DNA from: a virus | Virus record (IMG/VR): IMGVR_UViG_2786546475_000019 | Span: 974-64,973 of that record | Length of the DNA: 64,000 nucleotides | Direction: 5' to 3' (one strand) | Shown: positions 2,218 to 49,520 of the stretch, in pieces | Layout: every line of letters begins with the position of its first letter | Position numbering within the stretch: position 1 is the stretch's first letter | Notes under the pieces: generated by a model | Told to the model about the DNA's origin: nothing | What the model saw: the letters and a program-made list of their open reading frames with translations, nothing else | Database searches by the model: none | Translations under genes and position numbers: made by a program

Positions 2218-2267
2218 AAACCCTTAGCCGCGGACCGGTCCAATTTGGACCGGTCTATTTTTATGCC

Positions 2268-2334
2268 CTTGGAATATCAACTAGCTGCACGCAATATCAA
2301 ATAGCTGCACGCAATATCAACTAGCTGCACGCAA
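2268..2334. repeat. About 3.3 tandem copies of a 20-bp unit, (c/a)tagctgcacgcaatatcaa, i.e. iteron-like
   Basis: Direct reading. Copies start at 2281, 2301 and 2321, with a partial copy before. Confidence 0.8.
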
Positions 2335-2436
2335 ACCCGGTAGGGGTTTATCACAAGTCGTTGCACCCAGGAACAATACCGGGGTCCGTCGCCCTTAACG
2401 CGACGACACAAGCATGATATTTTGTGCCACGGTCCC

Positions 2437-2521
2437 CGGACCTAGCTACTCGGACCTAGCTACTCGGACCATGCACCCTGATCCACGGACCATGATCCAC
2501 GGACCACGGACCAAGCTACTT
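2437..2521. repeat. GGACC-rich repeat block: ggacctagctactc x2 and tccacggacc(a) x3
   Basis: Direct reading. Confidence 0.75.
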
Positions 2522-2565
2522 AGGCCAAAACACAATGATACTGGGGTAGGGGTTCAGAATCCGCC

Positions 2566-2577
2566 GGTCCGTGGACC
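2566..2577. promoter_or_regulatory. GGTCCGTGGACC 12-mer, identical to 50177-50188. Candidate protein-binding site
   Basis: Exact 12-mer recurrence. Related ggaccgtggacc occurs twice at 69-86. Confidence 0.5.
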
Positions 2578-2687
2578 AAAGAACTTCATTAACGTTTCCT
2601 CTGAAAATTATTTTCTGAATTTTTTCAGAATTAGGGGCAATCCGTCCTGCCCTCATTCGTATCTATAGGGAAGTCCACCTACTGATA

Positions 2688-3257
2688 ATGATAATGACAA
2701 GAAAACTTTATCCAGCATTACCTGATCACCCTGAGTACCGTTGCAAGTCCACGGCTCAAAACAAACATTGTACGTTTCTATCATGTGACGGACTTCGCAA
2801 ACTGAATCTGTACGACGATCCAAGGCAATCTGATAAATGTCCCAAGCACGCCGGACGACCACCAAGTAAACAAACAGCTTTGGCAAAGTACATGGACACC
2901 CATCCTCATGAGGTGGGTTATCATTTGCCGGACCAAGCACCAAAGGTGCATTCCCAATCCCGAAGTGTCGCCGAAGAACTTCACATTCTCCGCACACTTC
3001 TTCAAAACACCCTGAACCAATGCAATACGTCGCTCGACTTACTCGCTAACACTGAGCGAATGACAGTCTTAAGTGATAAGATTGCTAACTTGATAAAAAC
3101 TGACGTATTCCTCGAAGAAAAAACAAAGAACTCCTTGACGCGGGACCAAATCATGGCCGTGCTCTCGGAGATACAACAAGTGATAACTCGGCATTGTTCG
3201 CCGGAGCAGGTCGCACTGATCCGTCAAGACTTCCAAGAACTAACCATTCCTGACTAA
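2688..3257 (+). CDS. Hypothetical Cys/His-rich protein, possibly zinc-binding. First gene of the long + strand operon
   Basis: ORF of 189 aa. N-terminal CxxxxxxxxCxxxxC...CPKH pattern. Confidence 0.4.
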   Translation: MIMTRKLYPALPDHPEYRCKSTAQNKHCTFLSCDGLRKLNLYDDPRQSDKCPKHAGRPPSKQTALAKYMDTHPHEVGYHLPDQAPKVHSQSRSVAEELHILRTLLQNTLNQCNTSLDLLANTERMTVLSDKIANLIKTDVFLEEKTKNSLTRDQIMAVLSEIQQVITRHCSPEQVALIRQDFQELTIPD

Positions 3258-3268
3258 CCTCAGTTACT

Positions 3269-3574
3269 ATGCCAAGTCACATAAATCCAAATCGCATCAA
3301 ATCAGAGACGATGTTCGCCGGAGCACAGAACATCAACATTATCACTACGGAATCCAGCGTCACGCTCCGTGCTCCAGATGATACAACTCAATCGCTCACG
3401 CCAACCGGAACCCATCCAAATAAAGTAATCTCAGCAACCCTCGATCAAGCAGGTTTCTACACCGTAGACGGTCACATTGGAAAAGTCCTTGTGCTTGTTT
3501 CCACTTATGATGAAACCTACGGAGCTGCTTACAGAGGAACGGGACTCACCCCAGTAGTAGGCCAAGACGCCTAA
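3269..3574 (+). CDS. Hypothetical protein
   Basis: ORF of 101 aa in the operon context. Confidence 0.35.
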   Translation: MPSHINPNRIKSETMFAGAQNINIITTESSVTLRAPDDTTQSLTPTGTHPNKVISATLDQAGFYTVDGHIGKVLVLVSTYDETYGAAYRGTGLTPVVGQDA

Positions 3575-3585
3575 CCAAACAAACC

Positions 3586-5217
3586 ATGTCATACGCAGAC
3601 GAAACAACAGCAAAAGCAGCCGTAGCAAATGCCATTGGCAACGCAACAAGCGTCGATCCAGTGAGCAATACGGAACATGCTGACGTTCTTGATAATTTGA
3701 TCGAGAACATCTTCGCCGCTGATGGTATCACTGTGTATTTCGCCGAACCTCTGTCGGGACTTGGCGATGACGGCGACGTCACAATCTACGAAAACAAAAT
3801 CTACTCGAAAGCTGCCGGAACATGGTCCGAGGAACTTGAATTAACAAGCTGGACTTTCAATACTGCTGATCCTCCCACGTCCACGTCTCACACTTATGCA
3901 ATCTCGACAACCGGCCAATTATACGTAAACGTCGCCGGAACATGGACCTTGCAGCAGTTATCATTAGGCAAATACAAAGGTGCTCACTCAACCACCACAA
4001 AGTATTACGCCAATGATATTATCCTCTACTCAGGGGAATTGCAGTACGCTAACAGCACGCACAATCCTAAGACATATGACGCCGCAGACTGGACTTCGCT
4101 ACCTACTGCGTCATCAACCCACGTACTCCACGATGATATCTCAACACTTCCTTCCTCCCCGGACGGTTACACGCTTGAACTATATGACGGGATCGGCGAG
4201 GGGATGCTCTTTGAGCGGGTATCAAGTGCGTGGGTTTACCGAACACAGACAACAACTCCAGTTGTTGACCTAACCTCTGGCAACGCTTCAACGATTGCAG
4301 CATATTTGTCCGCTGGTCAAATATATCGGTACAATTTAACGACAGGCGAACCATACTACGTTGATAACGCCGGAGCACGGACCTCGCTTCCTCCAATCCA
4401 AACCGCCGTAACAGCCCTACCGTCAATTGTAGACGGTCCCGATCTATTGGTTTGGACCACGGACCCTGACGGGCATCGAGCGTACTTTAAAGGAGCTTCC
4501 GCGTACCAGAAGCTCCCACTTGTCCCAAGTATCCAAGAGTCCGATCAATCACTTTCGGAGAATCGGGAACTAGCGTACAACGCCCGAACACTATCATTCG
4601 ACGGTGACGGCACATTCCGCTTCGGAGACTTAAGCGACAACACCGACGGATATTATGCGGCCTTCAACTCCGGTGCGTTACAGTGGGCCAATGCTACACC
4701 GGAAACGAACCTCACGTCCATCACCCCTACCATTGTCAATTCGCAAAACCTAGCTCTGGTAAACGACGGCACTAGCAACAGTTTCACGTTGAAATACGCA
4801 GGAAGCCAAGATCAAGACTTTACGTTTCCAGCAGATCTTCCAGCTTTAGGTAATATTCTGGAAGTCACGGGCCTTGCAACAAGTTCCATTGTAGTAGGCT
4901 GGCGTAAGCCCGTAAAAGACTGGTTCACGCTAACCTCAGCCACCCCAACTGTGACAGTTGACGGCAATGATAGCAAACGCTTTAAACTTGACCCTGGGCA
5001 CACTCCAATTACAATTGCTTTCACTAATTGTGAGCAACATGATTTTGTTCTCCTCAAGATACGAGGTCACGCTACAAACTCAGTGTCAATGCCTGCCGGA
5101 GCAGACGGTGACGTTTTCTCTCTTAGTACGGATGATACAAAAGCAACTTTAGTCACAGCTATCATTGATGGTTCCGCCATCCATCTTGGCGTAATGAGGG
5201 ACGTATCATGGGCTTAG
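3586..5217 (+). CDS. Putative tail fibre or structural protein (543 aa, Thr/Ser/Asn-rich)
   Basis: Large ORF. The composition is typical of fibre proteins. It lies adjacent to a beta-helix protein. Confidence 0.4.
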   Translation: MSYADETTAKAAVANAIGNATSVDPVSNTEHADVLDNLIENIFAADGITVYFAEPLSGLGDDGDVTIYENKIYSKAAGTWSEELELTSWTFNTADPPTSTSHTYAISTTGQLYVNVAGTWTLQQLSLGKYKGAHSTTTKYYANDIILYSGELQYANSTHNPKTYDAADWTSLPTASSTHVLHDDISTLPSSPDGYTLELYDGIGEGMLFERVSSAWVYRTQTTTPVVDLTSGNASTIAAYLSAGQIYRYNLTTGEPYYVDNAGARTSLPPIQTAVTALPSIVDGPDLLVWTTDPDGHRAYFKGASAYQKLPLVPSIQESDQSLSENRELAYNARTLSFDGDGTFRFGDLSDNTDGYYAAFNSGALQWANATPETNLTSITPTIVNSQNLALVNDGTSNSFTLKYAGSQDQDFTFPADLPALGNILEVTGLATSSIVVGWRKPVKDWFTLTSATPTVTVDGNDSKRFKLDPGHTPITIAFTNCEQHDFVLLKIRGHATNSVSMPAGADGDVFSLSTDDTKATLVTAIIDGSAIHLGVMRDVSWA

Positions 5218-7058
5218 GATTAGGATTAAACATGGGCTTGTTTCCTTTACCATCGGTTAAAGCAACATTGGACAACCGTCCTTTGTTCACGTCGCTTGCA
5301 TTTTTGCAATGGCGTCGCGATATAGTAACTGCAAAAGAACGCCCCACGTATTGGATCCCTCAAACAGAGTATTACGTCAGTGAATCGACCGGTAACGACG
5401 CTAACGCTGGAACAGAAGTCGCCCCTTGGCAAACACTTGAAAAAGCTCAACAAGTTCTTGACGCTTTGTCTGATGAATCGTATACCGTTATACGGCTCAA
5501 ACGTGGTGATACTTGGGAAGAAGAAGGAACTGTTTTAGCGGTAGACGGAAACTCGTGCTTACTGCGACTGACAAAGACGTTCAGCGGGATCAGTTCTTAC
5601 GGGTCCGGTGACCTGCCGTTTATCAATCAATTTGCTACCAAATACACGTCGGGTTGGACTGTTCACAGTGGGAACGTCTACGTCCGATCGGAAGCCAATG
5701 ATATTGTTAGCGTTCGGCTAACAACTGATCGCCTTGTACCTTTTTACGACGCCACAGACGCTACAGATTGTGCTACCGATATTGCTGACACAAACGGCTC
5801 ATATTTTTATGATGCGACTGGCAACAACTTATATGTCAACCTTGGCGGTACTGATCCGAATACAGTAACGATTGAAGCTGCAATTTCTAATGATGACACA
5901 GTTGAAGCGGTAGCACATGGTTGTTTCATCGAGAACATTCGGCTCGACGGCACGTTAAAAAGAACAACAAGGGACGAGCAGGCGGGTATCCGTTTAAATA
6001 TCAATGGCAGTGAAGTCGCAAGAATCGAGAACTGTGAAGCGTATTATGGTTCGTCTCACCTGATACACCAGAACGGTTTAACCGGGACTGGCGGCATCGG
6101 TATTATCAAGAATTGCAAAGCTGGCTATTCGCTCTGGAATACTGGCGGAAACACGATTTTCAATTCATACACATTAGGCGGCGATCAAGAGACTTATGTC
6201 CAAGACTGCGAGGTTCCTTATGGAACATTACCAGGTCACGAGTGGACGTCGACTAACTCAGCACACGATGCTTTAGATGGTTCAGCGTTTTATTGTCATG
6301 CTGGTGGCGGGGCAAACACTGGGTTTATCCTCGTCGATGGGATGAAGTGCGACCATGATAACGCTTGGGGTCCGCAAGAAGGGTCTTACAATGGTAGTGC
6401 TCCAGCAGCAGCAACAATCGAAGACGCCAAGGTAGTTGTCTTCGGAGAGGTCGTAGATAACAGCCGACTTGGGTTGCGATGTTTCCGATTATCACCTGCG
6501 AACGGAGTTGGAATTTGCAACACGTACACAGGAGGCTACGGCACCGATAGAAATTACCGAGCACTTTCAGCAACAAACCAAAGCGGCTTTATGTTTAATT
6601 GTCGCTTCGACGTTTCTCTCCCTGCTGGACTATTTAACGCTCACGGATTCTGGAACGGTTCTGGAACGTCAAATGTAAGCTGGTTCTTTAACCGTTTTAT
6701 CCAACGAGCTTCTCACGGATCGCATGATCTTGCGTTTAATTATGACTCCGTTTCTACATGGCCTGACAGCACGCTTTACAACAACGTTATCGCTCGCGTT
6801 GGAACCTATGATAACTCGGTCGCTATGTATAACGGCACTCCCGATTCCAACAACAATGCTCTGTATCAATTCAAAGGGGCGAACGCAGGAGCAAACTCAA
6901 TTGACATTACAACCGAGGCCGAAGCGGTTCAAGACACAGCAAATGTTGATACTTACGGTACATGGGAAGCTGCAAATACAGCAATCGGAGTTGTGCCTGA
7001 GTACGACAGGCTTCTGAACCCGCGAACAGCAACAACAAGCATTGGAGATTTGGCGTAA
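5208..7058 (+). CDS. Putative right-handed beta-helix (pectate-lyase-fold) tailspike/depolymerase-like protein
   Basis: 616 aa. The N-terminal ESTGNDANAGT...PWQTLEKA region, many G-x-N/D/T repeats and low-complexity Asn/Gly-rich segments suggest beta-helix. Confidence 0.45.
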   Translation: MGLGLGLNMGLFPLPSVKATLDNRPLFTSLAFLQWRRDIVTAKERPTYWIPQTEYYVSESTGNDANAGTEVAPWQTLEKAQQVLDALSDESYTVIRLKRGDTWEEEGTVLAVDGNSCLLRLTKTFSGISSYGSGDLPFINQFATKYTSGWTVHSGNVYVRSEANDIVSVRLTTDRLVPFYDATDATDCATDIADTNGSYFYDATGNNLYVNLGGTDPNTVTIEAAISNDDTVEAVAHGCFIENIRLDGTLKRTTRDEQAGIRLNINGSEVARIENCEAYYGSSHLIHQNGLTGTGGIGIIKNCKAGYSLWNTGGNTIFNSYTLGGDQETYVQDCEVPYGTLPGHEWTSTNSAHDALDGSAFYCHAGGGANTGFILVDGMKCDHDNAWGPQEGSYNGSAPAAATIEDAKVVVFGEVVDNSRLGLRCFRLSPANGVGICNTYTGGYGTDRNYRALSATNQSGFMFNCRFDVSLPAGLFNAHGFWNGSGTSNVSWFFNRFIQRASHGSHDLAFNYDSVSTWPDSTLYNNVIARVGTYDNSVAMYNGTPDSNNNALYQFKGANAGANSIDITTEAEAVQDTANVDTYGTWEAANTAIGVVPEYDRLLNPRTATTSIGDLA

Positions 7059-7309
7059 TGCTACTAAACATAACTGATAAACACGGTGTCACTGTGGGTG
7101 TTGTTGAAGCAGACACCTTGGAGAAAGCTTCCAAGCTCGCAAGAGATCACGTCACCAAGTTGGTAGATCCTCCTGCTCCTGACGGCACTCCAGGCATGAA
7201 GTACCCTAAGACTGAAAGCTCTGATTTGTTCATCGCATTCTTCCGAGAAGAAACTGATAAGCGACCAATATTGAAATTCAAATTCAAGCCACTTGATGTG
7301 ATCAAGTAG
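7058..7309 (+). CDS. Hypothetical protein
   Basis: ORF of 83 aa, start coupled to the upstream stop. Confidence 0.35.
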   Translation: MLLNITDKHGVTVGVVEADTLEKASKLARDHVTKLVDPPAPDGTPGMKYPKTESSDLFIAFFREETDKRPILKFKFKPLDVIK

Positions 7310-7320
7310 TTAATAGACCA

Positions 7321-8034
7321 ATGAAAGAAATTTTAGATTCACTATCACTAATCGGGCTGTTTGTGCTATCCATCGTAACGATCATGCATTTCGTACAGCT
7401 TGACAATCGAGGCGAGTGGATGCGACAAGTGCAAGAAAATTTTGACTACGGACAGCGATGCAGCTTGCACGATTTGAAGCAAACCATCAAAGCAAACAAT
7501 TTAATAGAGCCTGATTTTGCACCGCGTCCTCCAGTCCCTGAACCGTTTTGGCGAGAAACTACAACGTCTGCAAAATCAGACACCTGCCCACATTGTAATG
7601 TACCAATGAGATTTTTTGATTGTGTTGGAACCGTTCGGGCGTGGCGTATTATCATCGCACATTCTCTGATCAGTGCGATGTATCTGGGTATTGCGTTTTT
7701 CCGTTTTCTTCCGGCTGGAATGGAAGCACGAACGCAAACGGAACGAGTTGTTTGGTATTCGCTCGCGTTTATCTTCCCGTTTTGCTGGGCTGCGGGATAC
7801 GGGACGACGATACTCGCCGGCTGGTTTCCTGCTTTGGCGTACTTTTTGAAAGAATCAGCGTGCTACGTTGACGCTGCATTTTGTGTTACTTTTCTATGGT
7901 CGACGCGAAATCAAAATTTGGTTTCGGTTACTGTTGATAGTTTTCGAGACGAAATTGAAGACATTGTCAACAACGAAGACTCTGACTTATCTCACGGCGA
8001 CCGCATTCAGCAGATTCGAGACTCTTTGCAATGA
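7321..8034 (+). CDS. Multi-pass membrane protein with a CPHC...C zinc-ribbon-like loop
   Basis: 4-5 hydrophobic helices visible (LSLIGLFVLSIVTIM, IIIAHSLISAMYLGIAFF, VVWYSLAFIFPFCWAAGYGTTILAGWF, etc.). Confidence 0.5.
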   Translation: MKEILDSLSLIGLFVLSIVTIMHFVQLDNRGEWMRQVQENFDYGQRCSLHDLKQTIKANNLIEPDFAPRPPVPEPFWRETTTSAKSDTCPHCNVPMRFFDCVGTVRAWRIIIAHSLISAMYLGIAFFRFLPAGMEARTQTERVVWYSLAFIFPFCWAAGYGTTILAGWFPALAYFLKESACYVDAAFCVTFLWSTRNQNLVSVTVDSFRDEIEDIVNNEDSDLSHGDRIQQIRDSLQ

Positions 8035-8408
8035 ATATCTGGCTCTTGATGCAAGAATCGACAGCCCCTGGAATGCCTGCATGGGTGGGGTTCGTCACTG
8101 GTACGGGAGGTGGTCTAGTGATGGCAATTTTCGGACTGATTGCGTTGTGGAAGCGAATGATCTTCAAGGAAACACAGTACGAAAAACGGCTCGAAACGAA
8201 AGACAAAGAAGTCAATCAAATCGGGCGAGAGTTCGTTGAACTATCGATAAAGATGTTGGAACGGGACGAAAAAAACCGGGAAAACGATAAGGCAATCCGC
8301 GATGGTTTCGACAGACTAATTGAGCACGTTAAAACCGACTCACTTAAAATGGAGAATTGGCGGAAAGAGGTGGATCGAATATTGGCACAGCTGGTACCCC
8401 GTAAGTAA
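8031..8408 (+). CDS. N-terminally membrane-anchored coiled-coil protein (i-spanin-like architecture)
   Basis: TM segment WVGFVTGTGGGLVMAIFGLIALW, then a charged heptad-like region. Confidence 0.4.
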   Translation: MNIWLLMQESTAPGMPAWVGFVTGTGGGLVMAIFGLIALWKRMIFKETQYEKRLETKDKEVNQIGREFVELSIKMLERDEKNRENDKAIRDGFDRLIEHVKTDSLKMENWRKEVDRILAQLVPRK

Positions 8409-8430
8409 AACGCAAAACAAAAGAGAACAA

Positions 8431-9531
8431 ATGACGAATTTAAGAACCCTGCTGCTGCTTCTAACAATTGTTGTTTTTCCGTCCATTTGTATCGGACAAG
8501 AGGGTCCAGATATCACTCAATGGCTGAAAGACAAGATCGCGAACCACGAACCTATCAAGTTGGAGCGTGGCGATTACTTCATTACAGAAACGATCAAGCT
8601 TCCAGGCAAGTACGGATCTTCGATTGAGGGTGTCGGTGTGGCTGCTGCTCACTTGTCTTCTGCAAACCCATACAATTGGCAGTCGACACGCATCTTCTGG
8701 CGTGGTGAACCGAATGAAGCCATGTTTCGGGCAGATGGATCGAATCAAACATTTAAAAACCTCACTCTTGTCGGCAAGCCAAGCTACAACGGCTCGACAG
8801 TTGAGGGCGTCGTCGGCGTGAAAGTCTTAAAAGCTCGCGGGCTTGGAACAGGCAAGCATCGATTCGAAAGTGTTTGGTTCCAGAACTTACACTACGGAAC
8901 ACAATGGGGTGAGTCTGCTACAGGGGCAGGTGCAAATTGCGACGAATCGTATTTTGACTCTTGTACATTCATGCAATGCCATTCAGCGACACGGTACGAG
9001 CACAGCCAAGCACTCGGCTTTACGTACATGAATTGTGTCTATAAGCAAGTTGAACGGTGTCATGATATTCAAGCCGGTGGGCATATCACAGCGTACAAGT
9101 GTTTCGTATCACAACCACCAAGCGGCAAGAAAGTTAACTTCTTTCACTTCACCGATGAAGCACAACGACGATATCGTATTGGAACATCGGCTGGAATGAT
9201 CACAGCTTACAATCTTAAGGTGGATTATCAATCAAAAGAAAACTTCCGAGCAGTCTGGATGGACAGCGACGTGAACGGTGTAACGATCACGTTCCGAGAT
9301 TGCCAAGTATCATTCACGGACTACGGCAAGGAACTATTCATCAAGGCAGGTGGTCCTGCAAAGATCGTCATTGATAACTGTCGCTTTCCCGGATATACAA
9401 CCTCACGCTACCAATTGAATACAGATGATCGTGGATTGACGCCAACGATGCAACGACCAACGATGGAATATATTCCACGAGCGATCGATACGGACCCTGT
9501 TCCTTCACCTACACCTATCGGACAAGGCTAA
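8431..9531 (+). CDS. Secreted protein with a signal peptide and beta-helix-like repeats
   Basis: Start refined to MTNLRTLLLLLTIVVFPSICIG (the ORF-track start at 8320 lies inside the upstream gene). Shows a GDYFITETIKL pattern. Confidence 0.45.
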   Translation: MTNLRTLLLLLTIVVFPSICIGQEGPDITQWLKDKIANHEPIKLERGDYFITETIKLPGKYGSSIEGVGVAAAHLSSANPYNWQSTRIFWRGEPNEAMFRADGSNQTFKNLTLVGKPSYNGSTVEGVVGVKVLKARGLGTGKHRFESVWFQNLHYGTQWGESATGAGANCDESYFDSCTFMQCHSATRYEHSQALGFTYMNCVYKQVERCHDIQAGGHITAYKCFVSQPPSGKKVNFFHFTDEAQRRYRIGTSAGMITAYNLKVDYQSKENFRAVWMDSDVNGVTITFRDCQVSFTDYGKELFIKAGGPAKIVIDNCRFPGYTTSRYQLNTDDRGLTPTMQRPTMEYIPRAIDTDPVPSPTPIGQG

Positions 9532-10265
9532 TGGATTGGACTGTAGCTGTAACTGCTTTAATTGCTTCTTTGCTTGGTTCCGGGGCTACTGGTGGTGCGA
9601 TTGCTGCGTACTTCAAATTTCGTACAAACCAGCAAGCTGTAAAATATGAACAGCAAGAAGTGTTATTCAAACAGATAATGGAGAACGCGAACCGAGCAAC
9701 GGCAAGAGTTGATATCTTGCTCAACGAACTTGCGAAACGCGACGAAGCCATCACTGAACGCAACACTAAAATTGGACAGCTCCAAAACGAAGTTCACGCC
9801 CTATCCGAAAAGGTCGATCGGCTCCGCAAGCAGATTAAACAAATGGAGTCTAACCGAATAGCCTACGACACCATGCACGTAGTCGAAGGTATGATGGACA
9901 CGTTCCCGTTCCCAGCTTGGCTACACTCAGTTGGCGAGAATAAATGGTACGTCAACGACGCATATTGCAAAGCATTTGGAATACACCGCGACACGTTCTG
10001 GCAAGGGGTAAACATCTTGGCGATGTACCCCGCTGAAATTGCGGCAAAGTACGTTCAACATGATATGAAAGTGGTAGAGTCCAATATGGGTTCGCTGTTT
10101 ACCGAGCAAGTCAGCAAAAACGTGATGCAACACGATCCACAATCTGAATTTGAGTGTGACATTTACAAGATGCCAATTGTAGCAGGCGGGAAAAGATACA
10201 TTTTCGGGCTGGCAAAGCTTGGGCATGACGTATGGGGCAACAAACTAGCAACTATTTCAGACTAA
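9531..10265 (+). CDS. Membrane-anchored protein with a coiled coil plus a PAS-like C-terminal domain
   Basis: N-terminal TM (VAVTALIASLLGSGATGGAIAAYF), heptad region, then a C-terminal region with PAS-like features. Confidence 0.4.
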   Translation: MDWTVAVTALIASLLGSGATGGAIAAYFKFRTNQQAVKYEQQEVLFKQIMENANRATARVDILLNELAKRDEAITERNTKIGQLQNEVHALSEKVDRLRKQIKQMESNRIAYDTMHVVEGMMDTFPFPAWLHSVGENKWYVNDAYCKAFGIHRDTFWQGVNILAMYPAEIAAKYVQHDMKVVESNMGSLFTEQVSKNVMQHDPQSEFECDIYKMPIVAGGKRYIFGLAKLGHDVWGNKLATISD

Positions 10266-10274
10266 GGTGATAAA

Positions 10275-10526
10275 ATGAATACCGTTATTATGGGGGTAAC
10301 AGTTAGTTGGAAAACTACTGTTGCTGCAATTCTTTCCTCTCTGGCTGCTATTTTTATGGTGCTAGCTGCTTATTTTGATGGCGACCCAGCCACGATCCCT
10401 AATTGGGAAACTGCAGCAATTGCCGTGTTGGCAATCGGCCAAATGATTATTGGGGTTTTTACTAAGGACAATGATAAGTCCACTGAAGACCATAAACTTC
10501 CTCGTAAACGATTGAGGACAAAATAA
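10275..10526 (+). CDS. Holin-like small membrane protein (2 TM, charged C-terminus)
   Basis: 83 aa, two hydrophobic helices, KLPRKRLRTK tail. Confidence 0.4.
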   Translation: MNTVIMGVTVSWKTTVAAILSSLAAIFMVLAAYFDGDPATIPNWETAAIAVLAIGQMIIGVFTKDNDKSTEDHKLPRKRLRTK

Positions 10527-11554
10527 TGGCTACTACCAAAACATTACTTCAAGGCTTTGACGGGCGGGAAGACTTTCGTGATATGCTTCGCGAAATGCGA
10601 ACGGCTGCCCTTCGGTCTTGGGACATTACTCTTGCAATACGTATTCGCAAAGTTCTTCGAAACAATAAACTGTTTGAAAAAGTCTACGACCATGCAACTG
10701 TAACTTCGGCTCAAGCTCTACTTGATAGTCCACGGCTCTCGGAATTTGGCGATGGGGAGTTTGGCAAATGGTTCCTCGATTGGTTCAAGAACGGTGGGGC
10801 TCAAGCTATCATTGAGTTCATTCGAGCATTGCTCCCGTTGTTTGGAGCTTTTATGAGCGTTCTGTTACCGCTTCTTATCACTTTGTCTTTGTGTGCCACG
10901 GCCCAAGGTCAAAGTATCAAAGGAGCCGAAACTGCTAAACCGGGATCGCTCGTTGTCTTAACGCCGGTGGATGCTGACGATGTTCGAACAGTTTGGAACT
11001 TGAATTACCCCGAACAATTCGAGGAGTATGCAGAAGAAAACGGCAAGCTTTTCATTGCAATGCCGTCAAAAACAATTTCGTTTTCACTTCTGGTGATTCC
11101 AAACGATACAACACTCCCAATTCGTAACCTACGTCATACAGTTTCTCCGTCTGACGCTCCAGTGGTTCCGGGCCCCGGTCCTGATCCAGTAGTGCCGAAA
11201 CCTCCAGAGATTGACGTAACTCAATCTCCAATTTATCAATTTGTCAAGAACAGTTTTGAGAGTATCCCGGACCCTAATAAGCGAGAAAGGGCCGGTAAGC
11301 TTGCAAAATCCTTTGGCATCATTTGTGCTCAAATCAAGAATAAAGAAATTACAACAGTCAACGACCTCTTGACTGATATTCGAGAGGCTAACCTGAAAGA
11401 TTGGCCCGAAGACTCTAGGCAACTGTGGACCTCTTTCCGTAACGGTATGGCTCGCCAGTTTGATACTTTGGAAGACGCTGGGGAGTTGGAGACCGTTGAC
11501 GATTTCTACCTTCATTTGAAAGCAATTCAAGTCGCTCTTGAGGAGTCAGTTTAA
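10526..11554 (+). CDS. Hypothetical protein with a central TM segment and a Pro-rich linker
   Basis: ORF of 342 aa. LLPLFGAFMSVLLPLLITLSLCATAQG looks like an internal signal or anchor. Confidence 0.4.
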   Translation: MATTKTLLQGFDGREDFRDMLREMRTAALRSWDITLAIRIRKVLRNNKLFEKVYDHATVTSAQALLDSPRLSEFGDGEFGKWFLDWFKNGGAQAIIEFIRALLPLFGAFMSVLLPLLITLSLCATAQGQSIKGAETAKPGSLVVLTPVDADDVRTVWNLNYPEQFEEYAEENGKLFIAMPSKTISFSLLVIPNDTTLPIRNLRHTVSPSDAPVVPGPGPDPVVPKPPEIDVTQSPIYQFVKNSFESIPDPNKRERAGKLAKSFGIICAQIKNKEITTVNDLLTDIREANLKDWPEDSRQLWTSFRNGMARQFDTLEDAGELETVDDFYLHLKAIQVALEESV

Positions 11555-12492
11555 TGTACCCAATTCGTAGATTACCCGACGACCTTATCGTCAGTGAAGG
11601 GTTAACAGCTAAACAAATCAAAAGACAAGACGTTGGCTGGGATGAAATTGATCTCCAGCTTGATAAAGCTTTTGGCCGAGAAAATGAAAACCGATGCCCG
11701 ATTTTTATTGCAGACACCGGTCTTCCTGAACATCCAGATATTCCTAAAGCCCAAGAAGCTTGGAATTTTACCGACGACCCTTCTGTTGTGGATTTGAACT
11801 TCCACAGCACTTGGATCAATGGTAAGATGACGGCGTACAACAATGATATTGGGTACGAAGGTATTTGCCCTGAGGATACTCCAGTATTCATACTTAAAGT
11901 CTTGAACAATCAGGGTTCTGGTTGGCGTATGCTTCAAGCAATGCGTAAAGCGTTAGATTTCTGGGTCAACCATCCTAAACGTCGCTCAGGGGAGTGGGTT
12001 GCGGCAGTTTATAATATGAGTTACGGGGGTGGCGGCTATTCACAAGATGAACAAATTTTGTTTAAGGATATGATAAAAGAGAACATTCTTCCGTTTGCTG
12101 CCAGCGGCAATGAAGGACGTTCGGCTCCCTCATTCCCTGCGAAATATGAAGGAGTTCTATCAGTTGGAGCTTATGACCCTCAACGAGAGAAAGCAAGCTT
12201 TACTAATTACGGCCCGTGGACTGATTTTGTTGCTCCCGGCGTCAACGTCCCTTCCACAATCGGCAAAAACAAGTACGGCCCATATAGTGGGACGTCAATG
12301 GCTTGCCCAATTAAAGCAGCGTGTGCCGCTAATTTTATCAGCTCTCGCCCTAATGATAAATGGATGCATGATGTTCCAGGTTATCAAGAAGCTGTACAAC
12401 CGTATATGGAGAATCTGCCCGGCACTTGGGATGGAGACGGAGTATTCCTTCCCGCAAAAGGAACAGTTCGCAACAAATACTTTTTCTGGTAA
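11554..12492 (+). CDS. Subtilisin-like serine peptidase (S8 family), no signal peptide
   Basis: Motifs: IADTGL (Asp), HST...KVLNNQGSG (His region), ASGNEG (Asn oxyanion), GTSMACP (Ser). Confidence 0.65.
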   Translation: MYPIRRLPDDLIVSEGLTAKQIKRQDVGWDEIDLQLDKAFGRENENRCPIFIADTGLPEHPDIPKAQEAWNFTDDPSVVDLNFHSTWINGKMTAYNNDIGYEGICPEDTPVFILKVLNNQGSGWRMLQAMRKALDFWVNHPKRRSGEWVAAVYNMSYGGGGYSQDEQILFKDMIKENILPFAASGNEGRSAPSFPAKYEGVLSVGAYDPQREKASFTNYGPWTDFVAPGVNVPSTIGKNKYGPYSGTSMACPIKAACAANFISSRPNDKWMHDVPGYQEAVQPYMENLPGTWDGDGVFLPAKGTVRNKYFFW

Positions 12493-12503
12493 AGGAGATC
12501 CCA

Positions 12504-12961
12504 TGAGATCACTACTATTATCAATGCTGACTTTGTCACTTGTTTGTTTTATTTCGTCTATTGGAACAGCAAGCACTCCGCTTACGTTTCAAGACGCTTT
12601 CAACCCCTGCCCTAACGGAGTGTGTCCAACTCCAGTACAAGGCGTCACGGTTCGCAAACCTTTGCTTCGCCCACAAACCACGATCTATGAAGCTTGGGAC
12701 GCGACACAAGGAGTTGTTCAATATTCCCAACCAGTGATAATTTCACAAGGAGTTGTTGAACAATTCACCGCCCCAGTCCAAGAGGTTATGACTACGGAAG
12801 TCGTTTACGAGTACACAACTTTATCAAACGCCATGTACTCGCAATGTGCGACTGCCAATATGGCAGTCGATATTCAACGACGGCGACGTAACTTGGTAAC
12901 GGCGTGGCGACAAAGACCTGGACTATTTGGATGGCGTAAACGACGAGGGCTATGTCAATGA
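12504..12961 (+). CDS. Small secreted protein (signal peptide, basic C-terminus)
   Basis: Start refined to MRSLLLSMLTLSLVCFISSIGTAS. The ORF-track frame 12095.. overlaps the protease gene. Confidence 0.45.
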
Positions 12962-13218
12962 ATCCAGTAGCTCACACCCTTCGATTGATATCAGTGACAG
13001 CAACAGCCGAAACTCTTAAGAGCCAAAACGATTTGTTCCACGGAGCTTCGGAAATTCGAGTGACCCCTGCTGCTGATATTACAATGAAGGATTTGCAGAC
13101 GGGAGCTTCTGTTACATTAACTTCCGGCCAAACACATTCCCTACCTGCCGCTAACGTTGCGACAGAATTTCAATTCACCACAAGTGGAGCCGAAGTGTTC
13201 CAAGTTTACTCCGCATGA
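12952..13218 (+). CDS. Hypothetical protein immediately upstream of the terminase. Not an obvious small terminase subunit
   Basis: 88 aa, start/stop coupled (atga) with the next gene. Confidence 0.3.
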   Translation: MSMNPVAHTLRLISVTATAETLKSQNDLFHGASEIRVTPAADITMKDLQTGASVTLTSGQTHSLPAANVATEFQFTTSGAEVFQVYSA

Positions 13219-14894
13219 TAACTGAACTGTTTGACCATTTAGCCGAAAGCTTAACCCACAGCACAATCACAAATTGTGCTCAGTGGGCGTTAGAGCGTAG
13301 GGTTATGGGACGACCGTTCGAGGGCCCATGGAATTTTAAATTATTTCCGTGGTTATACACTCCGCACGTTTCCAACCATCCATTTCGGTTGGCATTGAAA
13401 GGTGCTCAATTAGGGTTTACAGAGTGGGCAATTAACGAAGCTTTTTACGCTATTGATCATAAGCGTTCAAATGTTTTATATTGTCTGCCTACAAAGGGCA
13501 ACGCGGGTGACTTTTCAACCACCCGCTTCAACCCTGCCCTAGCCCTTAGCCCCTATATCGCGAACTTGTTCTCTGGTGCAGATAATGTATCATTGAAGAC
13601 GGCAGGTTCTCGGTCACTGTATATTAGGGGTTCAAAGGCTAGAGCAGACTTGAAGTCTTTGCCAATTACTGTTTTGATACTTGACGAAATTGATGAAATG
13701 CCTAAAGAGTCAATCTCTCTAGCTCATCATCGTCTTGATGGACAAGCCGTAGGTTCAACTTCATTGCTTGAATTATCAACTCCTACTCTACCTGATATGG
13801 GGATTGACGCTGAGTACAAATTATCAAACCAGATGATTTACGTATTCCAGTGCCCAGGATGTAGCAAGTATATTGACTTGCAATACCCTAGGAATTTTAA
13901 GCTAACTGCTACGCGAATGAACGATCCTGACATTGAAAAGAGTTATTTCTTTTGTCACGAGTGTGATTACGTAATAGACCACGAAGCCAAACCAGAGATT
14001 TTTAAATGCAAGGAAATGGGCGGCACGGGTCACTACAGACCGCAAGTAAAATATGCTGACCGAGAAGGGTACTATGTAAATCAAATGTACTCCTCGGCCA
14101 AAGGCGGAACGCCAATTGAGTGGGCTAAAGCCGTAATACTTGCAGAAACAAATCCGTCAAAAGAACAAGAGCTTTGGAACTCTAAAGTTGGTAAAGGCCA
14201 TGCAACAGAGAACGCAAAGCTAGAAGAAGGAGTCTTAGAGCAGCATAAGCGAAACTACACTATTGCCGACTACGAACTCCATGATAATCGTATTAGAACA
14301 ATTGGGTGTGATGTTGGAGCAGTTTGCGATTTAGTGTGCTTAGAGTGGACGTGGGAGTCTGATCTTGGCCTGCCTAATGATAGATACCGTCCTCGACTGG
14401 TAGGTGAATTATCATTGCCCCGATCTTCGGAAGATGCCCGAGCCATTTTGGACTACTTCCGAAAGATGAACGCTCATATGTTTGTTATGGATTCCGAACC
14501 TGAAAGTCGTTTTGCTCGACAAGTCATCAATTTGCTAGGCGACTATGGGTTCATGTGTGATTATGGGAAAGGATACAAAGCAGGACAAGTTAATGTTAAA
14601 GAAGAAGATGGCTTTATCACTGTAAATCGAACTACATGGTTGGATATAACTATGTCTCGATTCACAGCTGCTAACAAAGACGGAACAGATTTACCTAGCG
14701 ACATAAGCGAACGATTCCTTCAACATATGACAGCCCCTGCTAGATATTACAAAGATGATGCAAATGGCGACCCCATAGCTATTTACAAAAATGAAAAAGC
14801 GGATCACTTGTTTCATGCGTGGACCTACGCTGAGATAGGATTGCCTCTTTACTTCCTAACAGCCGAAGGCGAAGATATCGATGTTATCTTTTAG
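13215..14894 (+). CDS. Terminase large subunit (GpA-like family)
   Basis: ALKGAQLGFTEW Walker-A-like, VLILDEIDEMP Walker B, CPGC...CHEC zinc motif. It sits before the portal gene. Confidence 0.6.
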   Translation: MITELFDHLAESLTHSTITNCAQWALERRVMGRPFEGPWNFKLFPWLYTPHVSNHPFRLALKGAQLGFTEWAINEAFYAIDHKRSNVLYCLPTKGNAGDFSTTRFNPALALSPYIANLFSGADNVSLKTAGSRSLYIRGSKARADLKSLPITVLILDEIDEMPKESISLAHHRLDGQAVGSTSLLELSTPTLPDMGIDAEYKLSNQMIYVFQCPGCSKYIDLQYPRNFKLTATRMNDPDIEKSYFFCHECDYVIDHEAKPEIFKCKEMGGTGHYRPQVKYADREGYYVNQMYSSAKGGTPIEWAKAVILAETNPSKEQELWNSKVGKGHATENAKLEEGVLEQHKRNYTIADYELHDNRIRTIGCDVGAVCDLVCLEWTWESDLGLPNDRYRPRLVGELSLPRSSEDARAILDYFRKMNAHMFVMDSEPESRFARQVINLLGDYGFMCDYGKGYKAGQVNVKEEDGFITVNRTTWLDITMSRFTAANKDGTDLPSDISERFLQHMTAPARYYKDDANGDPIAIYKNEKADHLFHAWTYAEIGLPLYFLTAEGEDIDVIF

Positions 14895-30379: not shown

Positions 30380-30528
30380 TATTTCAGATATGACGTTTGA
30401 AATTAACTCGGATGGAAGCATCTCAATTCGATTCTTTAGCTCTACGACGTTTTCTATCAATTTGCTTGATGGAGTAGACGGCGATGAAGCAGTTGTATCT
30501 GTCACTCGAAAGAAACAAATGGATTAGA
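30366..30528 (+). CDS. Small ORF (54 aa), unlisted in the ORF track
   Basis: ATG at 30366 fills the gap between the GT and the next gene. Weak support. Confidence 0.2.
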
Positions 30529-30530
30529 AA

Positions 30531-39149: not shown

Positions 39150-39327
39150 TCATTTTCTCCGATACGAAAATATAGATTGTACGAAACGTTAGACTAACAG
39201 TCACAAACCAAAGCACAATGAACGTAGGAAATGAGTGCCAAGCTTTCATATCACAGTGATGTAAGAAATATGCCAACAAATACCCCGAAGCAATTGTTAA
39301 TAGGCTAAATAATATCACTTTTACCAT
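39130..39327 (-). CDS. Small membrane protein
   Basis: 65 aa, two hydrophobic stretches. Confidence 0.3.
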   Translation of the reverse strand: MVKVILFSLLTIASGYLLAYFLHHCDMKAWHSFPTFIVLWFVTVSLTFRTIYIFVSEKMNANIKN

Positions 39328-49508: not shown

Positions 49509-49520
49509 GATATTCCTTTC

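What the first reader, a model, noticed from the sequence alone, without database searches (positions are those of the whole stretch)
7321..12961. Envelope-targeted gene cluster upstream of the terminase with no recognisable endolysin
Eight consecutive genes encode a multi-pass membrane protein with a Zn ribbon, two N-terminally anchored coiled-coil proteins (spanin-like architecture) and a Sec-signal beta-helix protein. The second coiled-coil protein ends in a PAS-like domain. Then come a 2-TM holin-like protein, a protein with an internal anchor, a cytoplasmic S8 subtilase and a small secreted basic protein. The position between tail fibres and terminase is where lysis cassettes often sit. 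I could not find any lysozyme, amidase or CHAP motif anywhere in the window. Either lysis uses a non-canonical secreted enzyme (the signal-peptide beta-helix protein is a candidate glycan-degrading lysin), or the cluster is a surface-modification or superinfection-exclusion module. A PAS domain on a membrane-anchored coiled coil suggests regulated triggering.
Basis: inference. Interest (0 to 1): 0.6.

Follow-up and report, generated by a model that had tools for sequence, protein, structure and literature searches.

The report
Recurrent phage protease–envelope gene module
A marine phage with no recognisable cell-wall-cutting enzyme carries a run of membrane and exported proteins beside its DNA-packaging gene; the core of that run (two partner proteins plus a protease with no export signal) recurs in at least ten otherwise unrelated phage contigs and may be an undescribed way of breaching or remodelling the host envelope.

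Summary
The eight genes exist as described (7321-12961). They form one tightly packed + strand run that ends in the large terminase. Membrane or exported proteins are enriched there: 6-7 of 8, against 12 of 82 elsewhere (p <= 6e-4).

Confirmed:
- an S8 subtilase with an intact catalytic triad and no signal peptide;
- a Sec-signal beta-helix protein (AF2 pLDDT 89, tailspike-depolymerase-like).

The PAS call is sub-threshold, but similar calls recur at two other loci. The Zn-ribbon and spanin analogies are not supported.

Pfam and PHROGs detect no lysozyme, amidase or peptidase lysin in the window. The remaining ~8 kb of the ~72-kb genome, read in a sister contig, has none either.

The cluster is not one unit:
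- g1-g2 are exchanged together with the receptor-binding genes in a sister genome.
- g3-g5 have no homologues at the other loci.
- g6-g8 belong to an apparently undescribed module found in ten distinct phage contigs. It consists of a small cytoplasmic protein, an exported Ig-like/Pro-rich/helical protein (the two are fused here) and a signal-less protease. The protease is S8 in seven contigs and papain-like in three. 2-TM holin-like, TM-PAS-like or class-3 lipase genes often precede it.

Best reading (about 0.4): a non-canonical late envelope-breaching (lysis) set. The function is untested.

The parts
5078..8413 (+). Exchangeable cassette: the 3' end of the 543-aa fibre-like gene, the 616-aa beta-helix protein, an 83-aa ORF, g1 and g2. 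A sister genome (L002) replaces it with non-homologous genes.
   Evidence: blastn of window against L002: 92% identity for 978-5078, no match for 5078-8413, match again from 8413. The L002 replacement encodes 415-aa (faint Laminin_G_3), 241-aa, 98-aa and 114-aa proteins. The last two again have an N-terminal hydrophobic segment followed by a charged helical region.
7321..8034 (+). g1: 237-aa multi-pass membrane protein with an acidic C-terminal tail. It belongs to the exchangeable cassette.
   Evidence: Hydrophobic segments. No Pfam, PHROG, NCBIfam or PADLOC hit. Only one CxxC knuckle, so no Zn ribbon.
8031..8408 (+). g2: 125-aa protein with an N-terminal Gly-rich TM segment and a charged helical region. 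It belongs to the exchangeable cassette.
   Evidence: TM segment at residues 21-39. K/R residues lie only after the TM. No significant family hit.
8431..9531 (+). g3: Sec-signal, 366-aa right-handed beta-helix protein of the pectate-lyase/tailspike-depolymerase superfamily.
   Evidence: Signal-like N-terminus, MTNLRTLLLLLTIVVFPSICIG followed by QEG. AF2 pLDDT 89.1, pTM 0.86. Foldseek PDB best hits: tailspike gp49 6c72 at 5e-5, GH87, inulin lyase. 159 remote homologues. 9 of 66 of them hit PF12708. In the first 125 codons, 37 synonymous against 14 non-synonymous codon differences from the sister genome.
9531..10265 (+). g4: 244-aa protein with a weakly hydrophobic Gly/Ala-rich N-terminal anchor, a coiled coil (about residues 35-110) and a PAS-like C-terminal domain (about 119-227).
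   Evidence: Pfam PAS E 0.0059, below threshold, covering profile positions 4-109 of 113, plus many coiled-coil hits. TM proteins with sub-threshold PAS hits sit upstream of the module in L021 (E 0.0079) and L017 (PAS_9 E 0.002). There is no pairwise sequence similarity between them.
10275..10526 (+). g5: 83-aa protein with two TM segments and a charged, basic C-terminus (class-II-holin-like architecture).
   Evidence: TM segments at 16-34 and 45-63. Only non-significant holin hits (phrog_297, E 0.063). Non-homologous 2-TM proteins of 79-80 aa occupy the same position in L010 and L012.
10526..10852 (+). g6N portion of g6: about 109 aa, helical, cytoplasmic, ending in a hydrophobic or amphipathic helix. 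It is a separate gene in every other locus.
   Evidence: phmmer hits to separate ORFs of 101-169 aa directly upstream of g6C homologues. A family HMM also detects L013 (E 6e-6) and L014 (1e-3); L015 is weak (2e-3 in a three-sequence search).
10853..11554 (+). g6C portion of g6, from internal Met110: signal or anchor segment, Ig-like beta-sandwich, Pro-rich linker and a C-terminal helical bundle.
11554..12492 (+). g7: 312-aa S8 subtilase with no signal peptide and no I9 propeptide. It has a short N-terminal extension with the motif RLPDD.
   Evidence: Pfam Peptidase_S8 2.7e-28. PDB subtilisins 3.5e-30 with D/H/S aligned. It belongs to a phage clade, P0004-P0016, at 44-69% identity; cellular S8 proteins reach at most 36%. 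No clade member has a signal peptide. The RLP motif falls in the alignment columns where an intracellular serine protease homologue has LIPY.
12503..12961 (+). g8: 152-aa protein with a signal peptide, a CPNGVCP motif, a V/Q/T-rich region and an Arg-rich C-terminal tail.
   Evidence: The ORF immediately downstream of S8 in the six other S8-type loci is in each case a protein with a signal-like N-terminus, a CxGxC motif and an Arg-rich C-terminus. Pairwise phmmer E-values range from 2e-9 to non-significant.
12952..13218 (+). 88-aa ORF of unknown function between g8 and TerL. It overlaps both neighbours.
   Evidence: No family hit.
13215..14894 (+). Large terminase (context; downstream end of the run).
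   Evidence: Pfam GpA_ATPase 7e-28. The best cultured-phage relatives reach only about 23% identity.

Best explanation
The region is a late-operon string of three juxtaposed envelope-directed units, not one cassette.

(A) g1-g2 are inner-membrane proteins that travel with the receptor-binding genes.

(B) g3 is a tailspike-derived beta-helix glycanase-like protein that has gained a Sec signal and so acts outside the cytoplasm. g4 is a membrane-anchored coiled-coil/PAS-like protein. g5 is a 2-TM holin-like protein.

(C) g6-g7-g8 are one copy of a recurrent, previously unannotated phage module. It has a small cytoplasmic protein (g6N), an exported Ig-like/Pro-rich/helical protein (g6C, fused to g6N in this phage), a protease made without any export signal (S8 here, papain-like in other phages) and, in the S8 versions, an exported Cys-motif protein with an Arg-rich tail.

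Proposed mechanism (inferred, not shown):
1. Late in infection g6C, g8 and g3 are exported by Sec and wait in the periplasm or on the surface.
2. The protease accumulates in the cytoplasm, possibly auto-inhibited by its short N-terminal extension as in intracellular subtilisins.
3. The holin-like g5 permeabilises the inner membrane, possibly timed by the PAS-like g4.
4. The protease then reaches the periplasm and cleaves envelope proteins, or the pre-positioned g6C and g8, which breaches the wall and outer membrane.
5. The peptidoglycan-cutting activity would be an unrecognised fold, either in this set or elsewhere in the genome.

The genes, folds, signals, mosaic structure, recurrence of the module and absence of a recognisable lysin are shown. 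The timing, the topology, the substrates and the link to lysis are inferred.
For: 1. Enrichment of membrane or exported proteins in one overlapping late run that ends in TerL.
2. No muralytic or lysis-category family was found in the window ORFs scanned (Pfam; PHROGs on the unannotated ones). Outside the window, five unannotated ORFs were scanned with PHROGs and the precomputed Pfam column shows no lysin.
3. A second, unrelated module-bearing phage also shows none by Pfam. This is IMGVR_UViG_3300029145_000007: 38.3 of its 43.3 kb were assembled, and all ORFs were scanned except two large ones (744 and 1148 aa) and the module genes. There the module sits right after the tail genes, at the end of the late operon.
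4. The g6N and g6C genes are followed by a signal-less protease in all ten distinct loci. It is S8 in seven. It is Peptidase_C1-like in three: L021 with Pfam 2.4e-6 and PDB Der f 1 1e-6; L020 46% identical to L021; L017 31% identical to L021, E 6e-27. Non-orthologous displacement indicates that the selected activity is proteolysis coupled to g6N/g6C.
5. The mix of signal-less hydrolases with Sec-exported partners is the logic of holin-dependent lysis cassettes. Immediate upstream neighbours are 2-TM proteins of about 80 aa in three loci. They are signal-less class-3 lipases in L013 (3e-13) and L017 (1.2e-7), and a GYSWG hydrolase-like protein in L011. They are TM plus coiled-coil or PAS-like proteins in L020, L021 and L017.
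6. The g6N-g6C fusion in this phage implies that the two act at the same membrane site on opposite faces.
7. g8-like proteins end in Arg-rich tails. g6C has a Glu/Pro-rich linker reminiscent of periplasm-spanning spacers.
Against: - There is no experimental or expression evidence of any kind.
- No peptidoglycan hydrolase is identified, and subtilases and papain-like enzymes are not known to cut peptidoglycan.
- g5 and the other 2-TM proteins match no holin family significantly. They are absent from most of the other loci.
- The module also occurs among replication genes (L010) and after head genes (L011). That pattern fits a mobile accessory gene set equally well.
- Lack of a recognisable lysin is common in very divergent environmental phages. 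Cryptic lysozyme folds exist (PMC8943055, found).
- Only two module-bearing genomes could be checked for lysins.
- The positive-inside rule gives inconsistent orientations for the three PAS-like proteins.
Confidence: 0.4

Rival explanations
1. The cluster is a surface-remodelling or superinfection-exclusion set. g3 strips or modifies the surface polysaccharide that serves as receptor, which also prevents progeny from re-adsorbing to debris. g1-g2 block entry of phages that use the same receptor. g6C and g8 occupy periplasmic targets. Lysis itself is done by an unrecognised enzyme elsewhere.
For: - g1-g2 are exchanged together with the receptor-binding genes. This matches the known adjacency of exclusion genes to receptor-binding genes in T5 (llp) and T1/phi80 (cor), recalled from established knowledge.
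- g3 has the fold of receptor-destroying tailspike depolymerases but is Sec-exported and lacks a virion-attachment domain.
- A signal-less remote relative sits in a virion structural module.
- The sequence differences between the two sister genomes in this stretch all fall in the first 125 codons of g3, next to the swapped cassette.
Against: - A protease and lipases without export signals cannot reach the surface before the membrane is breached.
- The module recurs without any g3, g1 or g2 homologue.
- Exclusion genes are usually expressed early or from prophages, but no prophage copy was found in 185,579 species-representative genomes.
Confidence: 0.25
2. g6N, g6C and the protease form a self-contained proteolytic regulatory or processing device. 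Examples would be a membrane-tethered zymogen with its inhibitor or activator, used for host takeover, anti-defence or maturation of an exported effector. On this reading its position beside other envelope genes is incidental.
For: - The S8 clade has the architecture of intracellular subtilisins: no signal peptide, no I9 propeptide, and a short N-terminal extension whose RLP motif falls in the columns where an intracellular serine protease homologue has LIPY.
- The module moves as a unit into different genomic contexts, including next to replication genes and a Cpn10 gene.
- The gene fusion argues for a physical g6N-g6C complex.
Against: - Two of the four module proteins are Sec-exported, so at least part of the action is extracytoplasmic.
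- There is no hit to any PADLOC defence model beyond a generic subtilase match.
- Recurrent neighbours are membrane proteins and lipases, not nucleic-acid or signalling enzymes.
Confidence: 0.2
3. The run is a chance accumulation of unrelated accessory genes (morons) with no shared role. Lysis is canonical but uses proteins too divergent to recognise.
For: - The region is demonstrably mosaic.
- Most proteins of this phage have no Pfam or PHROG hit at all.
- TerL is only about 23% identical to any cultured phage.
Against: - The enrichment of TM or signal-bearing proteins is statistically strong.
- The genes overlap as one tightly packed run.
- The same kinds of neighbour (2-TM, TM-PAS-like, lipase) recur around the module in independent phages.
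Confidence: 0.15

Closest known systems
Canonical holin-endolysin-spanin lysis cassette of phages of Gram-negative bacteria (lambda S, R, Rz/Rz1)
   Same: Small 2-TM protein with a charged C-terminus. Signal-less hydrolytic enzyme encoded next to it. Exported partners in the periplasm. Late-operon position next to structural and packaging genes.
   Different: No peptidoglycan hydrolase. No lipoprotein o-spanin or u-spanin. The enzyme is a protease. g5 matches no holin family significantly.
Mycobacteriophage LysA/LysB/holin cassettes
   Same: A second, non-muralytic hydrolase is part of the lysis cassette and attacks the outer envelope layer: LysB is an esterase (established knowledge; review PMC6116114 listed, not read). 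Here, class-3 lipases sit directly upstream of the module in L013 and L017.
   Different: No LysA equivalent. The lipases belong to a different family from LysB cutinase-like esterases. This window has a protease and no lipase. The host is probably a diderm marine bacterium, not a mycobacterium.
Disruptin gp28 of phage phiKT (cationic peptide that replaces spanins; bioRxiv 10.1101/515445, abstract seen)
   Same: A phage without spanins that may use a cationic segment to disrupt the outer membrane. g8-like proteins end in Arg-rich tails.
   Different: By the abstract, gp28 is a phage-encoded cationic antimicrobial peptide; from my own recollection it is about 56 residues and carries no signal peptide. 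g8 is 134-220 aa, Sec-exported and carries a CxGxC motif. No sequence similarity was tested or expected.
Intracellular subtilisin proteases (ISPs) of Bacillus and relatives
   Same: S8 fold with an intact triad, no signal peptide and no I9 propeptide. The short N-terminal extension has an RLP motif in the columns where an intracellular serine protease homologue has LIPY.
   Different: At most 31% identity to ISP-annotated proteins. The catalytic domain scores higher against secreted subtilisins (3.5e-30) than against ISP structures (about 1e-20). There is a conserved, clade-specific C-terminus (LPG.WDGDGVFLPA...F). Auto-inhibition is untested.
Phage tailspike/depolymerase beta-helix enzymes (e.g. 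Acinetobacter phage Fri1 gp49, Sf6 and CBA120 tailspikes)
   Same: Right-handed parallel beta-helix. These are the best structural matches. Remote homologues hit PF12708. One relative lies in a virion structural module.
   Different: g3 has a cleavable-type Sec signal and no N-terminal particle-binding domain, and is only 366 aa. It therefore cannot be assembled into cytoplasmic virions. Catalytic residues and substrate are unknown.
Sec-exported or SAR endolysins (Oenococcus phage fOg44 Lys44; P1 Lyz, phage 21 R21)
   Same: A lytic enzyme is exported ahead of time and activated at holin triggering. That is the logic proposed here for g3 or g6C.
   Different: Those enzymes have recognisable muramidase or lysozyme domains. 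Neither g3 nor g6C does.

Membership tests
Holin-endolysin-spanin lysis cassette | A peptidoglycan hydrolase (lysozyme, transglycosylase, amidase or endopeptidase) | tested here: not met
   No such Pfam, PHROG or NCBIfam family in the eight cluster proteins, in the other window ORFs or in the five unannotated ORFs scanned outside the window; no lysin in the precomputed Pfam column for that stretch. Sequence profiles only; most ORFs were not tested by structure.
Holin-endolysin-spanin lysis cassette | A holin: a small membrane protein with one to three or more TM segments and a charged cytoplasmic C-terminus, with demonstrated hole-forming activity | tested here: inconclusive
   g5 has the architecture: 83 aa, TM segments at 16-34 and 45-63, basic C-terminus. 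Holin hits are not significant (phrog_297, E 0.063). Activity cannot be tested here.
Two-component or unimolecular spanin | An outer-membrane lipoprotein component with a lipobox (o-spanin, or the N-terminus of a u-spanin) | tested here: not met
   An all-frame, all-start scan of the window for a signal plus lipobox gave only two spurious hits: one antisense to g4 and one inside the tape-measure gene.
Two-component spanin | An i-spanin: N-in/C-out single TM with a periplasmic coiled coil | tested here: inconclusive
   g2 and g4 have an N-terminal TM plus a coiled coil, with Rz-like phrog_312 only at E 0.00097 for g4. They have no K/R before the TM and several after it, which favours C-in. g4 also carries a globular PAS-like domain that is atypical of spanins.
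Peptidase S8 (subtilase) | Asp-His-Ser triad in subtilisin order, plus the oxyanion Asn and the S8 fold | tested here: met
   Pfam PF00082 2.7e-28, above the cut-off. Alignment to subtilisin BL shows DTG, H(S/G)T, N(E/S)G and GTSMA. D54, H84, N186 and S248 are invariant in the clade alignment.
Intracellular subtilisin protease (ISP) subgroup | No signal peptide or I9 prodomain; a short N-terminal LIPY/F extension that blocks the active site | tested here: inconclusive
   No signal peptide or prodomain in any clade member. The RLP(D/G) motif falls in the columns where P0027, a homologue annotated as intracellular serine protease, has LIPY. An inhibitory role cannot be tested with these tools.
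Pectate-lyase-like right-handed beta-helix superfamily (PF12708 / PF13229) | Parallel beta-helix fold and profile membership | tested here: met
   The fold criterion is met: AF2 pLDDT 89, and Foldseek hits to tailspikes, GH87, GH28 and AlgE4. The protein itself gives no Pfam hit. Membership is transitive, through 9 of 66 homologues hitting PF12708, best 6e-12.
PAS domain | A score above the family threshold, or a PAS fold | tested here: inconclusive
   g4: PF00989 E 0.0059, 17.0 bits against a cut-off of 22.6, covering profile positions 4-109 of 113. Similar sub-threshold PAS hits occur in two analogous TM proteins.
Zinc ribbon (g1) | Two CxxC (or CxxH) knuckles | tested here: not met
   Only C89-x-x-C92 plus an isolated C101. 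No family hit.
Known anti-phage defence systems (PADLOC) | A match to a defence-system protein model set | tested here: not met
   Only a generic subtilase model (1.9e-11) and coiled-coil noise.

The most novel reading that the evidence does not exclude
The g6N/g6C/protease module is a new, protease-centred lysis pathway. On this reading, a zymogen protease (serine or cysteine type, interchangeable) is held in the cytoplasm. It is released through a holin-type lesion that a membrane-anchored PAS sensor may gate. In the periplasm it processes pre-exported partners (g6C, g8) or envelope tethers. In these phages this would replace the canonical endolysin, the spanins, or both.
Probability: 0.2. 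Interest if true: 0.85.

Novelty: new variant of a known kind. Interest (0 to 1): 0.6.

Why it matters
Lysis by tailed phages of diderm bacteria is currently explained by three protein classes: holin, muralytic endolysin and spanin or disruptin. A recurrent module built around a signal-less protease and two dedicated partners would point to a fourth kind of player, especially since the genomes checked show no recognisable endolysin or spanin. That player could be an executioner, an activator of pre-exported pro-lysins, or an outer-membrane disruptor.

Even if the module turns out not to be lytic, three features define a coherent new protein system that is now directly testable:
- the non-orthologous exchange of S8 for a papain-like protease;
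- the gene fusion of g6N with g6C;
- the repeated association with TM-PAS-like proteins and class-3 lipases.

The analysis also shows that part of the 'cluster' (g1-g2) is really cargo of the host-range cassette. That matters for interpreting host-range mosaicism in uncultured marine phages.

Tried and rejected
RELATIVES AND HOST.
- TerL against cultured phages gave only about 23% identity, and TerL against IMG/VR gave nothing. There is no close reference genome.
- A prophage search with the g6C profile in 185,579 species-representative genomes found nothing. The host could therefore not be read from a prophage.
- Host inference is contradictory and left unresolved.
  - For Bacteroidota: by my reading of the N-termini, Gln would follow the likely signal-peptide cleavage site in g3, g6C, the secreted 186-aa early protein and most g6C homologues whose N-termini I could read (sequences). 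This is the Bacteroidetes Q-rule (PMC5837995).
  - Against Bacteroidota: 32 of 60 genes have a strict Shine-Dalgarno core, against 4.5 expected. From my own knowledge that is atypical of Bacteroidota.
  - NCBI files the identical g6 protein under an Acidobacteria MAG. That reflects binning only.

FAMILY AND FOLD SEARCHES.
- NCBIfam and PADLOC gave nothing specific.
- Fold searches of the g6 model returned only generic Ig-like domains. The helical C-terminal domain found no PDB counterpart, so the idea that it is a cryptic lysozyme-like domain could be neither supported nor excluded.
- g4 against PDB sequences gave only coiled-coil noise.

IDEAS REJECTED.
- g6 as an anti-sigma factor (cytoplasmic domain, TM, periplasmic domain, in a phage that encodes a sigma factor). 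Rejected because g6N and g6C are separate genes with their own signal-like N-termini in all other loci.
- g3 as a virion fibre. Rejected because of its conserved Sec signal and the lack of an attachment domain.
- The g1 Zn ribbon and the spanin analogy.

LITERATURE. Full-text searches for phage S8 proteases, proteases or lipases in lysis cassettes found no description of this module. The library is incomplete, so this is not proof of novelty.

The Logan and JGI contigs of the other loci could not be extended, so only two module-bearing genomes were checked for lysins.

Full report
SOURCE AND CONTEXT.
The window is part of a marine (Tara Oceans) metagenomic phage genome of about 72 kb. The S8 protein is encoded identically on contigs of 72,328 and 71,449 bp. 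A sister contig shows that the sequence beyond position 64000 runs through a ParB-like gene, DNA polymerase A and a ligase back to the first ORF of the window.

The + strand from 856 to about 33,600 carries the late genes. They comprise fibre-like proteins, the cluster, TerL (GpA_ATPase), portal, a P22-coat-like capsid protein, a tape-measure protein and others. The - strand from 33,580 to 58,592 carries early and replication genes. No tRNA gene was found. TerL is only about 23% identical to any cultured phage and had no relative in IMG/VR.

THE OBSERVATION.
Neighbouring genes overlap by 1-10 nt or lie at most 22 nt apart, and the overlaps continue through an 88-aa ORF into TerL. The consensus scan shows no convincing terminator inside the run.

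By a uniform hydropathy criterion, 6 of 8 proteins have a TM-like or signal segment (7 of 8 counting the weaker Gly/Ala-rich N-terminus of g4). Elsewhere in the window the count is 12 of 82, and several of those are obvious false positives. Fisher p = 6e-4, or 5e-5 with g4 included. The enrichment is real.

THE INDIVIDUAL PROTEINS.
- g7 is a bona fide S8 subtilase (Pfam 2.7e-28; PDB subtilisins 3.5e-30). Asp, His, Ser and the oxyanion Asn are all aligned. It has no hydrophobic N-terminus and no I9 propeptide.
- g3 has a Leu-rich Sec-type signal. Only two close relatives exist among 5.8 billion proteins. An exhaustive HMMER search found 159 remote relatives, and 9 of 66 sampled hit PF12708. With that alignment AF2 gives a confident right-handed beta-helix (pLDDT 89.1). 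Its best PDB matches are phage tailspike depolymerases, GH87 glucanases and inulin lyases, at modest scores (E about 5e-5, TM about 0.45-0.5). About 40% of the remote relatives have hydrophobic, signal-like N-termini. A relative without one lies in a virion structural module.
- g4 gives a sub-threshold but nearly full-length PAS hit (E 0.0059).
- g5 has two TM segments and a basic C-terminus. Its only holin hit is not significant.
- g1 has a single CxxC knuckle, so the Zn ribbon is not supported.
- NCBIfam and PADLOC add nothing.

NO RECOGNISABLE ENDOLYSIN.
I concatenated all other called ORFs of the window and scanned them with Pfam. I scanned the ORFs lacking a Pfam hit with PHROGs, together with five of the unannotated ORFs of the ~8 kb outside the window. 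No lysozyme, transglycosylase, amidase, CHAP, M15/M23 or any lysis-category family appeared; the precomputed Pfam column for the stretch outside the window lists only ParB_N, DNA_pol_A and ligase hits. An all-frame search for lipoprotein signals found no o-spanin or u-spanin candidate.

The caveat is that cryptic lysozyme folds are known (PMC8943055, seen).

THE CLUSTER IS A MOSAIC.
Against the sister genome L002, the window is 92% identical up to 5078. It has no match from 5078 to 8413, and matches again from 8413. All 64 remaining substitutions lie in g3; the amino-acid changes all fall in its first 125 codons (37 synonymous against 14 non-synonymous codon changes), which indicates purifying selection. 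g4 through the capsid gene are 100% identical.

The replaced block contains the end of the fibre-like gene, the 616-aa beta-helix protein, an 83-aa ORF, g1 and g2. In L002 it is replaced by a 415-aa protein with a faint Laminin_G_3 hit, a 241-aa protein and two small proteins. Each of those two again has a hydrophobic segment followed by a charged helical region. g1 and g2 therefore travel with the host-range cassette.

A RECURRENT MODULE.
The S8 protein has a tight clade of relatives (P0004-P0016, 44-69% identity), far from cellular S8 proteins (at most 36%). I fetched six of their contigs. Profile-guided scans of IMG/VR and JGI metagenomes with the g6C alignment added four more distinct places.

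In every one of the ten distinct loci, a g6N homologue is followed by a g6C homologue with a signal-like N-terminus, and then by a protease:
- g6N homologues are 101-169 aa (phmmer and HMM).
- g6C homologues are 222-276 aa.

Only in the window phage are g6N and g6C fused into one ORF. The internal Met110 corresponds to the start of the g6C signal.

The protease is S8 in seven loci. In three it is a papain-family enzyme of similar size, also without a signal:
- L021: Pfam Peptidase_C1 2.4e-6, above the cut-off; PDB Der f 1 1e-6.
- L020: 46% identical to L021.
- L017: 31% identical to L021, E 6e-27.

In all seven S8 loci the next gene encodes a protein with a signal-like N-terminus, a CxGxC motif (CPNGVCP, CPGGICP, CYNGVCY and variants), a low-complexity middle and an Arg-rich C-terminus. 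g8 is the window's copy.

The contexts differ: beside primase and polymerase genes (L010), after a Mu-F-like head gene (L011), upstream of TerL (L014 and the window), and right after the tail genes (L017).

RECURRENT NEIGHBOURS.
Directly upstream of g6N lie the following:
- non-homologous 2-TM proteins of 79-83 aa in the window, L010 and L012;
- signal-less class-3 lipases in L013 (3e-13) and L017 (1.2e-7), and a GYSWG hydrolase-like protein in L011;
- a TM plus coiled-coil protein in L020;
- TM proteins with sub-threshold PAS hits in L021 (E 0.0079) and, two ORFs further upstream of g6N, in L017 (PAS_9 E 0.002).

Together with g4 (E 0.0059), that makes three independent membrane-anchored PAS-like proteins next to the module. 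They are not detectably similar to each other pairwise.

STRUCTURE OF g6.

A SECOND GENOME.
I assembled 38.3 of the 43.3 kb of the IMG/VR contig that carries the C1-type module. Its module is TM-PAS-like protein, TM protein, lipase, g6N, g6C, then C1. It lies at the end of the structural operon, before the replication genes. Pfam again finds no lysin in the ORFs scanned; two large ORFs (744 and 1148 aa) and the module genes themselves were left out of that scan.

INTERPRETATION.
The following are shown: the genes, signals and folds; the mosaic; the recurrence of the trio; the exchange of protease type; the g6N-g6C fusion; and the absence of recognisable lysins and spanins.

The following are inferred. 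Signal-less hydrolases encoded beside small membrane proteins and Sec-exported partners follow the logic of holin-dependent lysis cassettes. Mycobacteriophage LysB and phiKT disruptin show that non-muralytic effectors can belong to such cassettes.

I therefore favour a late envelope-breaching role in which the protease gains access to the periplasm only when the membrane is permeabilised. I put this at about 0.4.

The rivals are:
- a surface-remodelling or exclusion set (0.25), which best fits g1-g3;
- a self-contained proteolytic device unrelated to lysis (0.2);
- unrelated accessory genes (0.15).

The positive-inside rule suggests that the coiled coils of g2 and g4 face the cytoplasm. The three PAS-like proteins give inconsistent predictions, so I do not rely on topology.

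HOST.
The host is unresolved. By my reading of the N-termini, Gln would follow the likely signal cleavage site in three of the four signal-bearing proteins of this phage and in most g6C homologues I could read. That matches the Bacteroidetes Q-rule (PMC5837995).

Against that, 53% of genes have a strict Shine-Dalgarno core, where 4.5 of 60 are expected by chance. From my own knowledge this is atypical of Bacteroidota. GenBank files the identical g6 protein under an Acidobacteria MAG.

NOVELTY.
I found no family annotation for g6N, g6C or g8 in Pfam, PHROGs, NCBIfam or PADLOC. Full-text searches found no paper describing a phage module of this kind.

The family is rare. Among 5.8 billion proteins there are 8 g6C clusters besides the window's own and 13 S8-clade clusters (P0004-P0016). 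IMG/VR holds two loci and JGI metagenomes four. No prophage copy was found.

I classify the finding as a new variant of a known kind (an envelope or lysis gene set). The more radical reading, a protease-centred lysis pathway, remains open at about 0.2.

Noticed in passing
window 10831-10856: A GC-rich stem-loop followed by TTTT lies inside g6, immediately before the internal ATG (10853) that corresponds to the start of the separate g6C gene in all other phages. It might allow independent translation of g6C, or mark the former intergenic junction.
   Followed up: partly
window 49587-50147 (-), 49338-49550 (-), 41367-41567 (-), 39130-39327 (-): A second group of envelope-directed proteins lies in the early region. 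It includes a 186-aa secreted protein (signal ending ...TTAYG, followed by Q) and three small proteins of 65-70 aa with strong TM segments. They could be early exclusion proteins or alternative holin or antiholin candidates.
   Followed up: no
window 51285-51629 (-): A 114-aa protein whose N-terminal half is a Gly-Tyr/Gly-Asp dipeptide repeat (GYGTGYGTGYGYGDGYGYGYG...).
   Followed up: no
window 856-2256 (+): The 453-aa ORF ends in an (Glu-Ala)7 repeat. It is followed by the strongest terminator-like hairpin of the scanned 2000-14000 stretch (2232-2256: 11-bp stem, 7 GC pairs, T-run).
   Followed up: no
window 29693-32255 (+): The late operon also encodes three further notable proteins: a protein with a DVDV motif that resembles a nucleotide-sugar glycosyltransferase (29693-30379; my reading only, no family hit), an SbcD-like metallophosphatase (30531-31748; PHROG DNA repair exonuclease, 2.9e-58) and an SPFH/Band 7 membrane-scaffold protein (31749-32255; Pfam 2.4e-12).
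   Followed up: no
window 33580-55976 (-): The early region holds host-like regulators and metabolic genes: CsrA (44384-44770), a sigma-70-family factor (37586-38236), thymidylate synthase (36344-37168), a MazG-like protein (39679-40206), a pyrimidine-dimer glycosylase (43881-44387) and a cysteine-dioxygenase-like protein (55578-55976; PHROG 1.5e-17).
   Followed up: no
whole window; proteins at 8431, 10853 and 49587 (-): Host signals conflict. Gln after the likely signal-peptide cleavage site (my reading of the N-termini) fits the Bacteroidetes Q-rule. Against that, 53% of genes have a strict Shine-Dalgarno core. GenBank places the identical g6 protein in an Acidobacteria MAG (CL489_06090).
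   Followed up: partly
L010 11724-12041: In one module-bearing phage a Cpn10/GroES gene (Pfam 6.8e-18) follows the g8-like gene. A DUF4417 protein comes next.
   Followed up: no
L002 6244-6881: In the sister genome, two small proteins (98 and 114 aa) take the place of g1 and g2 beside a different receptor-binding set. Each has a hydrophobic segment followed by a charged helical region. This suggests a conserved role for small membrane proteins linked to the host-range cassette.
   Followed up: partly
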